Positions 33,001-36,000 of a stretch of DNA of 64,000 bases are shown here, in pieces; within the stretch, counting starts at the first letter, position 1; every line of letters begins with the position of its first letter. The DNA comes from Mobula birostris (Eukaryota): positions 178,398,057-178,462,056 of the forward strand of contig NC_092374.1 in NCBI RefSeq assembly GCF_030028105.1, given 5' to 3'. The position numbers were made by a program.

Positions 33001-36000
33001 ATTACAGAGCTCTCTGTGTCAACATTGGAATATTGCTTTGGTTCCTCACTGGGGATGGAAAACATCATGGTCTTTGGGCTCTTGTTAGAGGTGGAAGGTA
33101 GTGCTGTTGTTCTAGAGGGAGAGGGTTAGCACAACACAGTGAATTTCTGGACTTGTGCCAGTGAACTGCTTTCTCTTCCTCAAGGAAGAAAAGTAATCAA
33201 GGTGTCTCCCCCCCCCCCCCCCGCAACCGCCGCAAAAAAAAAAAGGAAATTTCATATTGTACTGTCTTCACATATATTTTCTTGCAGCACAGGGTAGTCG
33301 AGGCCTCTGGGTGAGGACATTCAGGACATGGTTCTGCACCTAATTTTGTGCAACAACAAAGACTCCAGAGTTAGGGGTATGGAAGGAAACGGACAGTTGA
33401 CATATCAAGTCAAAATCCTTCATCTGGATTTGATCCAAAATGTTTAATCTCCATTTCCTTCCACAGATGCTGCTTAACACTATGAGCTCCCCAAGGAGTT
33501 TGGGTGTGGGTCCAGTTTGCAGCATCTGCAGCCTCTTCTGTCCTCCCAGGTAGGGATCTGTTGTCTGAGATGCAGAGTTACATTTGCTGTGAACTACCCA
33601 CTGCACCCCAGTCCAACTCCAGCTGAGTAATGTTACACAGATTCTGCCTATTCCACAGAATAGATGAGGAGGAAGAATAGTTCTTAGTGTGTGCATGAGG
33701 AATTCAGAGCAAGTGATAGACAAGTGTGATTGGATGGCCATGGGGCTGTGAAACCTGTGGAGGAATAGAGTTTAGAGTGTTTTGGAAGGCCTGGAATTTA
33801 GCAGCAGGAGTTTTGTGTTTGGACGAACAGCAGGGACTTAGATGTTAAAAGGAAAATCCCGAAACAAAGAAACACAGAACAGTGCACTGGGAAACAGACT
33901 GTCCTTGTTATTCCTCAGGCTGGCGCTACCATGACTGAGAAGGGACAGCAATCAAAACACCGCATGAACCTATTTACTACCCTGATCTTCTAACCTGGCC
34001 TTTAAGCTACTTCCACTAATGGTCTATTTCCCCATAATCATTTTCCAGTTTAGTCACATCATTGAGGACCATAGGGCAATCTCCAATTTTGTCATGATTC
34101 CCAGAGATTCCTTCTTAAGGTTTTATTTCCCCTCCAACCCCGCTGATTATTTTTGATCTCGACCTTTTACTTTAGACTATTTTGCTAATATATTTTCTAT
34201 CTTCTGCATCCTGGACCCTTACAGCTTTTCATATCTCCCTTTAGTGTCCTCTGCTCCTAAGAAGTAACTGCAACTGCTCAATTGTCCTCAAAAACAAAAG
34301 TACCCAGACTTTGCAGATCTCCCCTACACCCTCTCTTGTGCTATATCATCTTTGTAGTTCACGTAACATTTGCCAACTGTACTTGTTGGGCAGGACTCGG
34401 TGTGCTCCATGGAGCAGGTCCCATACTGTGGTTCATAGCTATGTTTGCAATAATTATTGGAGTGATGTAGAGGAGCAGCTTAGAGATAGCTAAGGCATTA
34501 CTACAGGTGGGTAAACACAGATCTATTATCTAATCCTATTTTCTGTCACAGTACTGGACAACCAATCTCTTCTCATTTTTCCTTTGCAGATAAGTGTTTG
34601 GCCCGAACTCAAGCACAGCTCTGAACACAGGGTGGAGCCTCAGCCTGGTTTGGTTATGAATGGCCACGTATTTCAGTAAACTTAGTGTTGTATCAGTATG
34701 GAAGCTGATTAGCTTAATCTTCTGCGGTTTTGCAATGCACCTTTTTCCCAGTTTTAAATTTTCTTACATCTCACTCAGAATTCAGGTTTCAGTGTTGTGG
34801 TGTGTTGAAATCTGAGCATCTCATCCACAAGGTCTTACCTGAGATGAGTTGCTCTCCTCAACTTTAGCTGAAACATCAATATCATATATCAGACCATTGC
34901 TGTGAAGGGCTGTGGCCAAGGAAAGTTCATGGGTCAGGCAGAGAAAGCTTTGCTGGGTGATTGGAAGTACCTCACCGGAAGTGGGAATGCTGTGGACACT
35001 GGAGACCCAAAAGTAATTCTTTCCTTAATGGAGATTGGGAGGGTCCAACATTTAGCTTAAAATATGAACAGAAGCCTCTGGCTAATGGAGCAATTCGGTT
35101 CGAGATTTGAGTTGAAAATATCTGAGAATCATAAAAAAATTGTAAATAGATTCATGAATATGTGTGTGGCGACCTCTTTCTCCTTCTTGCGTCCCCCAAA
35201 GGAGGTTTCTTGCATTCTAACGATCTACCTCTCTCCCTCAATGCCGTCAGAGGATGATGCCTCAGTACTCCAGTGATCCAGACTCAATCCTGATCTCCAG
35301 CATTGTCGGTTTGATTTTTTTCACATTGTCCCTGTGACTGCTCAGAGGTTCCAGTTCCTTCCTCTATCCCAAACCTTGGTCACTGTAAAGTTTCTCTGGT
35401 GTGTGCAGGAGAGCAGTAGAATCTGGGGGCAGTAGAGAAGTGTGAAGGAGAGTAAAATGGGATTATTGTGTATGGGGATGGATACTCAGCACAGGCTATG
35501 TAGGCTGAAGAAAGTGTTTCTGTACCCTGATGCAGAGGAAAGAACCCCATATGCAGAAGGGTCTGTCTTCACCTGATGTTTTTAAGAGTTGCTGCTCTGG
35601 CCCTTTGCCTTGTTCTGACTGAAACGCAGGCCGTGATGGAGGGGAAAGAGCGGACTGGAGACTGACCTGACTGTGCTGATTACCTCTACAGGCATGGGGA
35701 GTCCCAAGAGTTCGGGAAAATCTCTGTCCAGCTTCAGGTGACTAAAAAATGTACTCTCACCTCACTGCAGGAATGCTTGAAGCAGACATGACATCCCTGT
35801 GTTATTCAGTGCTACCTCCCTGTATTTGTGAGGCACCTAGGGGAGAGTTATTGGGGGAATATGCATGATCCCAGTACTGAATATGGTCCAGGGGGTGTCT
35901 GGGTTCAGTGAGTGCTTCAGTCCCACAGGTTGTTCTGAAACTTGAAGTAAGATCATCAAGCGCTGCAAGTAATTATTCTATTATCCATGTGATTTCTGCA

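What the first reader, a model, noticed from the sequence alone, without database searches (positions are those of the whole stretch)
34380..35115. Orphan paralogous tail exon and 3' UTR about 29 kb upstream: tandem family member or relic
Seen: 34380-35115 aligns with 63250-64000, keeping acceptor, exon length (113 nt), stop position, donor and the short following intron (83 vs 85 nt), with no indel in the coding part. I found no alpha1-alpha3 exons for it in 1-34.4 kb. Inference: a second gene whose domain exons lie beyond the window or were deleted; conserved hydrophobicity at 9/25 aa identity suggests selection acted on both copies.
Basis: partly seen in the sequence, partly recalled or inferred. 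Interest (0 to 1): 0.65.

Follow-up and report, generated by a model that had tools for sequence, protein, structure and literature searches.

The report
Orphan tail exon of ray UFA gene
A stray copy of the last coding exon and trailer of a shark/ray CD1-like immune gene (UFA) sits alone among transposons 29 kb upstream of an intact family member, most likely the leftover of a lost neighbouring gene, which is ordinary for MHC gene families.

Summary
34368-35118 aligns with 63238-64000 (73.4% over 767 columns, the only two copies in the window). Both copies have a 113-nt phase-1 exon, a TAG at the same codon 36 nt before an identical donor, and an 83/85-nt intron.

The window is from a Mobula-like ray, not human. 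The downstream gene is complete (leader 40881, alpha1, alpha2, alpha3, tail). It belongs to the elasmobranch nonclassical class I lineage UFA, crystallised as PDB 8GM8. Nearly all sampled relatives end at this same in-exon stop, so the shared stop is a family trait.

The orphan tail resembles ray sub-lineage B (15/25 identical), not the downstream gene's sub-lineage A (9-10/25). It carries 7 residues never seen in 11 distinct batoid tails, 4 of them at invariant positions.

tBLASTn with 23 family proteins and per-domain HMMs over all six frames find no leader, alpha1, alpha2 or alpha3 for it. No database protein ends with its tail.

Best reading (about 0.6): a decaying 3' fragment of a lost tandem paralogue. 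Rival (about 0.25): the live end of a gene whose domain exons lie more than 34 kb upstream. Low interest.

The parts
34368..34393 (+). 26 nt before the orphan acceptor. This is the first stretch alignable with copy 2. Homology is lost upstream of 34368.
   Evidence: 21 of 26 ungapped columns identical. The 28 nt further upstream are 32% identical. blastn boundary.
34394..34506 (+). Orphan tail exon, 113 nt, phase 1. Coding runs to 34467, TAG is at 34468-34470, and 36 nt follow the stop.
   Evidence: Tail HMM E=1.2e-5. 17 of 23 family proteins hit it by tBLASTn, best E=2.7e-4.
34507..34589 (+). Short GT..AG intron after the stop (83 nt; 85 nt in copy 2).
   Evidence: 68 of 83 ungapped columns identical, 82%. 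Ends read.
34590..35118 (+). Trailer (3' UTR-like) block homologous to 63463-64000. The alignment is cut by the window end on the copy-2 side.
   Evidence: 74-76% identity. No Rfam match in 33000-37000 at E<=1.
40881..40956 (+). Leader exon of the downstream UFA-lineage gene (ATG at 40881, donor G|GTAAGG). Conserved 5' UTR from about 40765.
   Evidence: Leader HMM E=1.7e-16, the only significant hit in the window. tBLASTn. Sequence read.
54515..54763 (+). alpha1 exon of the downstream gene.
   Evidence: Family HMM E=1.5e-42. 97.6% to P0002. PDB 8gm8_A E=1.7e-14. Boundaries read.
57170..57439 (+). alpha2 exon, with an AAG|GCAAGT GC-type donor.
   Evidence: Family HMM E=2.4e-36. The only PDB hit is 8gm8_A, E=4.6e-8. 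Boundaries read.
58225..58500 (+). alpha3 (Ig C1-set) exon.
   Evidence: Pfam C1-set E=1.7e-15. Family HMM E=2.3e-57. 97% to P0002. Boundaries read.
62884..63245 (.). Dispersed repeat abutting copy 2, with an inverted copy at 55724-56080. Its end coincides, within about 10 nt, with the point where homology to the orphan begins.
   Evidence: 67% identity over 368 columns, E=4e-18. Alignment.
63265..63377 (+). Tail exon of the downstream gene (113 nt, TAG at 63339-63341).
   Evidence: Tail HMM E=1.9e-14. 24 of 25 residues identical to the C-terminus of P0002.
63378..64000 (+). 85-nt intron (63378-63462) and trailer of the downstream gene, cut by the window end.

Best explanation
The segment is the surviving 3' end (tail exon, short trailer intron and trailer) of a second gene of the UFA lineage. 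UFA is a CD1-like nonclassical MHC class I lineage of sharks and rays. This second gene once lay head-to-tail upstream of the intact UFA gene in the window. The fragment derives from the ray sub-lineage I call B; the intact downstream gene is sub-lineage A. Its leader and alpha1-alpha3 exons have been lost or separated by rearrangement or transposon turnover, and the tail is now drifting.

Shown: paralogy, sub-lineage assignment, absence of domain exons in 34 kb, departure from family-invariant residues, and absence of any annotated protein with this tail.

Inferred: that it is no longer spliced into a class I mRNA, and that loss occurred by deletion or rearrangement near 34368.
For: 1. Paralogy is real and two-copy within the window. 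It is gene-derived: the exon is the C-terminal coding exon of RefSeq models from several ray and shark species.

2. The layout fits a tandem array: orphan tail at 34.4 kb, next leader at 40.9 kb. Mobula birostris has one A and four B genes on one 210-Mb contig. A Pristis model (P0001) fuses two adjacent genes.

3. No domain exons on either strand. tBLASTn with 23 family proteins at E<=1 gives nothing better than E=0.056 in 1-34.3 kb. HMMs built from 17 of those 23 proteins find exactly one significant leader, alpha1, alpha2 and alpha3 among 3185 six-frame ORFs. Among 126 ORFs of >=88 aa, Pfam finds only retroelement domains plus one C1-set and one MHC_I.

4. Relaxed constraint. The tail is B-like: 12-15 of 25 identical to B tails (15 to the Mobula B consensus), 9-10 to A, 11 to Pristis. 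It differs from the B consensus at 10 of 25 positions, whereas 11 B proteins differ at 0-3. It has 7 residues never seen in 11 distinct batoid tails from 18 proteins, 4 of them at the 8 invariant positions. Copy 2 has 0 novel residues.

5. No protein in the 5.8-billion set scores E<=10 against the tail query, with 83 candidates scored.

6. No collinear intron homology lies upstream of 34368 against the whole 41-63.3 kb gene region.
Against: - The frame is open, both splice sites of the exon and of the trailer intron are intact, and the hydrophobic stretch is even more hydrophobic than in copy 2 (Kyte-Doolittle 2.81 against 2.15). From a copy-2-like start, P=0.0024 of reaching that by random substitution.
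- Only 34 kb upstream could be examined. The intact neighbour has a 13.6-kb first intron and spans at least 22 kb, and the upstream region is transposon-rich. A very long intron is therefore conceivable.
- The break of homology near the acceptor coincides with a repeat in copy 2, so it need not be a breakpoint in copy 1.
- The negative protein search has power only for tails roughly 80% or more identical, by my estimate. The window's own species may not be annotated.
- Coding against non-coding divergence (65% against 76%) is only borderline (Fisher P=0.052).
Confidence: 0.6

Rival explanations
1. It is the live terminal exon and trailer of an intact, unannotated UFA paralogue. This would be a divergent B-type or third sub-lineage gene whose alpha3 exon lies more than 34 kb upstream, outside the window, across a transposon-inflated intron.
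For: - Open frame, intact acceptor and donor, intact trailer intron, and the stop at the family position.
- Hydrophobicity retained beyond random expectation.
- Long introns exist in the neighbouring gene: 13.6 kb and 4.8 kb.
- 1-34 kb is largely retroelement sequence.
Against: - The alpha3-to-tail intron would have to be more than 7 times that of the neighbour.
- Four of 8 family-invariant tail residues are replaced, and the branch is more than 3 times longer than any B tail.
- No protein with this tail is in the database, which holds the M. birostris and M. hypostoma RefSeq models.
- No ancestral intron homology lies upstream.
Confidence: 0.25
2. The exon and trailer are retained because they act in another way. 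Examples are an alternative terminal exon for read-through transcripts, or a transcribed non-coding or regulatory module upstream of the A gene.
For: - Several long identical runs in the trailer, up to 28 nt, and 15 identical nt around the stop.
- The Pristis model P0001 shows that read-through between neighbouring family genes is modelled by RefSeq.
Against: - Overall non-coding identity of 76% is uniform, and the runs are about what 75% identity gives over 750 nt (my estimate).
- No Rfam match.
- No transcript data are available.
Confidence: 0.1
3. The block is a dispersed repeat or transposon that only happens to lie behind a class I gene.
For: The genome-wide copy number could not be measured here. 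The window is transposon-rich.
Against: - There are only two copies in the window, both on the + strand and both where a gene's 3' end is expected, whereas real transposons here have 2-6 copies in both orientations.
- The exon encodes the C-terminus of annotated proteins in nine of the eleven named ray and shark species sampled; the Narcine and Scyliorhinus models end differently.
- No transposon-type Pfam domain was reported for the ORF carrying the exon (34245-34493). The block's other ORFs were too short to be included in the Pfam scans.
Confidence: 0.05

Closest known systems
Shark nonclassical MHC class I UFA (PDB 8GM8). Described as CD1-like in PMC10751288 and PMC12562908 (passages read).
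   Same: - The window's alpha1, alpha2 and alpha3 exons each hit 8gm8_A best: E=1.7e-14, 4.6e-8 (the only PDB hit) and 3e-23.
- A model of the database orthologue P0002 finds 8gm8_A first, at 38% identity. The entry title names UFA.
- The shark family member P0027 matches it at E=5.7e-85, against 2.8e-34 for UGA.
- Shark and ray members form one tree with 100/100 support for each clade.
   Different: - The literature passages call UFA single- or low-copy. RefSeq models show five genes in M. birostris and several in Hemitrygon, Hypanus and Pristis.
- The orphan has only the tail exon and trailer.
- The crystallised chain has no tail, so the tail cannot be compared with it.
Truncated class I gene fragments and pseudogenes left by birth-and-death evolution of MHC class I clusters, such as the partial class I fragments in mammalian MHCs (recalled, not looked up here).
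   Same: A partial gene copy lies among intact tandem paralogues and transposons, with an accelerated rate at otherwise conserved residues.
   Different: No stop or frameshift has yet occurred in the 24 codons. With so few codons that is uninformative.
Mouse Qa-2 (Q7/Q9): a class I molecule with a stop in the transmembrane exon, untranslated downstream exons and a GPI anchor (recalled from memory, a lead only).
   Same: The stop lies inside the membrane exon. It is followed by still-spliced former cytoplasmic exons, and the protein ends in about 15 hydrophobic residues after a small-residue/Pro spacer.
   Different: GPI anchoring of UFA was not tested and no predictor was available. This is a family-wide trait, not something special to the orphan.

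Membership tests
UFA lineage (elasmobranch nonclassical MHC class I): the downstream gene | alpha1, alpha2 and alpha3 each most similar to crystallised UFA rather than UGA, UAA or other class I | tested here: met
   Exon-by-exon PDB searches. Fold search names 8gm8 as UFA. Shark member P0027 matches at 5.7e-85 against 2.8e-34 for UGA. Tree.
UFA-lineage tail exon: the orphan | Phase-1, 113-nt exon encoding a connecting peptide plus a hydrophobic end, with the stop at the family position | tested here: met
   Tail HMM E=1.2e-5.
UFA-lineage tail exon: the orphan | Residues invariant in all 11 distinct batoid tails (8 positions, including the G-E-P spacer and G13, M15) | tested here: not met
   4 of 8 are replaced and there are 7 novel residues in all. 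Copy 2 has 0.
Intact UFA gene: the orphan | Leader, alpha1, alpha2 and alpha3 exons in cis upstream of the tail exon | tested here: not met
   None in 1-34.3 kb on either strand. Beyond the window this is not testable.
Intact UFA gene: the orphan | Spliced and expressed, with a junction from alpha3 into 34394 | not testable with these tools
   No transcript data. No eukaryotic genome collection is offered.
Processed (retroposed) pseudogene | Intronless copy with a poly(A) tail | tested here: not met
   The 83-nt intron is retained with GT..AG, and homology starts in intron sequence before the acceptor.
Dispersed repeat or transposon | Many copies, in either orientation, unrelated to gene position | tested here: inconclusive
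   Two copies, same strand, both at gene-3' positions in the window. The genome-wide count could not be made.
GPI-anchored class I-like molecules (works-like comparison) | C-terminal signal: small omega-site residues, a short spacer, about 15 hydrophobic residues and no cytoplasmic tail | not tested
   The pattern is visible by eye in the family alignment. No predictor or assay was available, so this is inference only.

The most novel reading that the evidence does not exclude
The orphan is the working terminal exon of an unannotated third UFA sub-lineage whose domain exons lie more than 34 kb upstream. Its tail has lost the family-invariant G-E-P spacer and gained hydrophobicity. That would mean a switch in how the molecule is held in the membrane, for example from a GPI-type signal to a true membrane span.
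Probability: 0.15. Interest if true: 0.4.

Novelty: new member of a known kind. Interest (0 to 1): 0.2.

Why it matters
It adds a small piece to the picture of how the CD1-like UFA lineage evolves in rays. The passages I read describe UFA as single- or low-copy. In myliobatiform rays it is instead a tandem multigene family with two old sub-lineages that undergo gain and loss. For annotation, the exon should be flagged as a gene fragment and not joined to the downstream gene. Beyond that it is an ordinary by-product of MHC birth-and-death evolution.

Tried and rejected
- tBLASTn with the window's own alpha1 and alpha3 ORFs found only themselves.
- Weak hits were judged chance. A minus-strand "alpha2-start-like" stretch at 39899-39997 scored E=0.044 by tBLASTn but only E=9.7 with the alpha2 HMM. 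Other weak HMM hits were 3212-4057(-) at E=0.17, which looks like a retroelement ORF by position and composition (no Pfam family), and 35666-35788(+) at E=0.097.
- A sensitive blastn of 28000-34393 against 41000-63264 gave only transposon-type matches.
- Rfam on 33000-37000 found nothing at E<=1.
- The 24-aa tail alone was too short for the protein search. The same frame extended to 40 aa gave no hit at E<=10 among 83 candidates.
- Papers PMC7002201 and PMC8454915 (the Almeida et al. class Ib lineage papers) are not held.
- A search for '8GM8' gave 3 unrelated papers. 'UFA, shark, CD1, lipid' gave 3 papers, none a primary description. I therefore found no primary UFA paper in this library.
- The 5629-7144 / 18359-19863 duplication (75%) is a LINE reverse-transcriptase pair, not a gene duplication.
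- Open frame, absence of indels and the shared stop position were rejected as evidence of selection.

Full report
**Observation**

blastn of 34000-35600 against the window returns one non-self match. It pairs 34368-35118 with 63238-64000 at 73.4% identity over 767 columns, with 20 gap columns and E=9e-122. The window contains no N. A full self-comparison lists 25 non-self pairs, and this block has no third copy.

Both copies hold a 113-nt exon, at 34394-34506 and 63265-63377. Each is preceded by AG and followed by an identical donor context. With two bases skipped (phase 1), both read 24 codons and then TAG. The TAG lies 36 nt before the donor in both copies, and the next GT..AG introns are 83 and 85 nt. 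There is no gap in the 77 coding columns. Identity is 9 of 25 residues. The alignment runs into the window end, so its 3' limit is unknown.

**What the downstream copy belongs to**

The + strand carries a complete gene:
- Leader 40881-40956, with ATG and a G|GTAAGG donor.
- alpha1 54515-54763.
- alpha2 57170-57439, with a GC-type donor.
- alpha3 58225-58500.
- The tail exon.

Pfam gives C1-set for alpha3 (E=1.7e-15). For alpha1 it gives only a sub-threshold MHC_I match (23 bits, cut-off 28.3).

I searched the spliced model exon by exon and left out the joined step. No concatenated product of the window's exons was made or searched.

The alpha3 exon finds 23 proteins at E<=1e-5 among 76 candidates. 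All are from rays, sharks and chimaera. The best by identity is a Mobula birostris RefSeq model, P0002, at 97%. The contig is therefore from a Mobula-like ray and not human.

P0002 matches the window's exons as follows:

| Exon | Identity to P0002 |
|---|---|
| alpha1 | 97.6% |
| alpha2 | 92.5% |
| alpha3 | 96.8% |
| tail | 24/25 residues |
| leader | 21/25 residues |

**Family identity**

Each domain exon hits PDB chain 8gm8_A best: alpha1 at 1.7e-14, alpha2 at 4.6e-8 (its only PDB hit), and alpha3 at 3e-23.

An AlphaFold model of the database protein P0002, built with 20 relatives (mean pLDDT 74.8), finds 8gm8_A first (E=2.1e-25, 38% identity). The entry title is "shark nonclassical MHC class I, UFA". 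Chain 9ch4 is "UGA".

The houndshark member P0027 matches UFA at 5.7e-85 and UGA at 2.8e-34.

Passages read in PMC10751288 and PMC12562908 describe UFA as an MHC-linked, CD1-like, single- or low-copy lineage. They give it as unpublished or as a personal communication. I found no primary paper in the library.

**Family structure**

A search with the B-type protein P0007 gives 25 members at E<=1e-20 among 1583 candidates.

An ML tree of 21 named members was built. It left out the fused model P0001, the partial or alpha2-less models P0004, P0012 and P0015, two chimaera class I proteins, and the unnamed P0025. The tree separates sharks from batoids at 100/100 support.

Within the rays it shows two old sub-lineages:
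- A contains Mobula plus Hemitrygon (100/100).
- B contains five Mobula and six dasyatid genes (100/99).
- The two Pristis genes lie between A and B.

M. birostris has one A and four B genes on a single 210-Mb contig.

19 of the 21 aligned members, including skate, houndshark and lamniform sharks, end in a hydrophobic stretch at the same alignment position with no cytoplasmic tail. The exceptions are a Narcine isoform and a partial Scyliorhinus model.

The in-exon stop and the spliced trailer are therefore family traits. After the stop, both copies still read as a basic juxtamembrane-like stretch. This suggests fossil cytoplasmic exons that now serve as trailer. That is inference.

**The orphan**

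Its tail is B-like. Identity is 12-15 of 25 to B tails (15 to the Mobula B consensus), 9-10 to A tails, and 11 to Pristis tails. It is also aberrant:
- It has 10 differences from the B consensus, where 11 B proteins have 0-3.
- It has 7 residues never seen at their positions in 11 distinct batoid tails from 18 proteins.
- 4 of those 7 fall on the 8 invariant positions. Copy 2 has none.

No domain exon accompanies it:
- tBLASTn with 23 family proteins at E<=1 finds in 1-34.3 kb only four single-protein hits, with E between 0.056 and 0.59.
- HMMs for leader, alpha1, alpha2 and alpha3 were built from 17 of the 23 proteins and run with all filters off against 3185 stop-to-stop ORFs of >=12 aa in six frames. 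Each finds one significant hit, the downstream gene.
- The tail HMM finds two hits, at 1.9e-14 and 1.2e-5.

Of 126 ORFs of >=88 aa in the window, Pfam recognises only retroelement domains plus one C1-set and one MHC_I. The retroelement domains are RVT_1 in 5 ORFs, GIY-YIG in 3, and integrase, protease, zf-RVT and DUF7041.

A 40-aa query carrying the tail found no protein at E<=10 among 83 candidates. By my estimate, that search would detect tails about 80% or more identical.

**Flanks**

Homology between the copies begins 26 nt before the acceptor. Those 26 nt are 81% identical, and the 28 nt before them are 32% identical.

On the copy-2 side, that point coincides within about 10 nt with the end of a dispersed repeat at 62884-63245. 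The repeat has an inverted copy at 55724-56080.

Nothing in 28000-34393 is collinear with the downstream gene's introns. This fits a breakpoint at the orphan, but it could also reflect transposon turnover in copy 2.

**Selection**

Identity by sub-region:

| Sub-region | Identity |
|---|---|
| Coding | 65% |
| After the stop | 72% |
| Intron | 82% |
| Trailer | 74-76% |
| Non-coding overall | 75.7% |

Coding against non-coding gives Fisher P=0.052. Of 19 differing codons, 16 are non-synonymous.

Random-substitution trials from copy 2, with 27 changes, keep the frame open in 60-67% of runs. The expected number of indels in 77 nt is 1.1, so P(0)=0.33. Kyte-Doolittle hydrophobicity of the last 15 residues reaches the observed 2.81 in only 0.24% of runs, and reaches 2.0 or more in 5%.

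Hydrophobicity was therefore maintained over most of the divergence, as expected for two once-functional sub-lineages. The present copy shows relaxed constraint at invariant sites.

**Verdict**

This is a genuine paralogous tail-plus-trailer module of a UFA-lineage gene. The probabilities I assign are:
- About 0.6: a decaying fragment of a lost or disrupted tandem B-type paralogue.
- About 0.25: the live end of a gene with a very long intron.
- About 0.1: some other retained role.
- About 0.05: a dispersed repeat.

The genome-wide copy number, the upstream sequence and transcripts could not be checked.

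Noticed in passing
42870-46392 and 59079-60902: Several 94-97% identical copies and inverted pairs of a Penelope-like retroelement lie inside introns 1 and 4 of the UFA gene. They carry GIY-YIG and reverse-transcriptase ORFs, including a 655-aa ORF at 43582-45549 (-). Their similarity suggests recent activity.
   Followed up: partly
57440-57441: The alpha2/alpha3 intron of the intact gene uses a GC donor in the consensus context AAG|GCAAGT. The alternative GT four bases on would break the phase.
   Followed up: partly
Database proteins P0002, P0005, P0007-P0009 (M. 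birostris) and relatives: The passages I read call UFA single- or low-copy. RefSeq models show one A-type and four B-type genes in M. birostris and several in Hemitrygon, Hypanus and Pristis, so the lineage is expanded in these rays.
   Followed up: partly
Database protein P0001 (Pristis pectinata, 670 aa); window 40765-40957: This RefSeq model fuses two adjacent family genes. alpha3 of the first gene is joined to exon 1 of the second, read in another frame. The stretch is conserved with the window's exon-1 region. This is either read-through or an annotation artefact.
   Followed up: partly
Alignment A3, alpha2 columns about 155-170: Five dasyatid B members (P0011, P0013, P0014, P0017, P0018) carry a 4-residue deletion in alpha2. 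All five lack the second cysteine of the family's paired-cysteine motif, and four of them (P0013, P0014, P0017, P0018) lack the first as well.
   Followed up: no
5629-7144 and 18359-19863; 5468-5626 and 31257-31420: Two LINE reverse-transcriptase copies are 75% identical. A 160-nt repeat is 91% identical in inverted orientation. 1-22 kb is a nest of minus-strand LINE and LTR-retrotransposon ORFs.
   Followed up: partly
47257-47878: A 620-nt stretch matches its own reverse complement at 72.6% over 664 columns, which makes it a large palindrome or hairpin-forming repeat in intron 1.
   Followed up: no
34471-34506 / 63342-63377 and the next exons: After the shared TAG, both copies still read as a basic juxtamembrane-like stretch. 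The stop lies 36 nt from the junction, which from general knowledge is too close to trigger nonsense-mediated decay. The trailer exons look like fossil cytoplasmic exons.
   Followed up: partly
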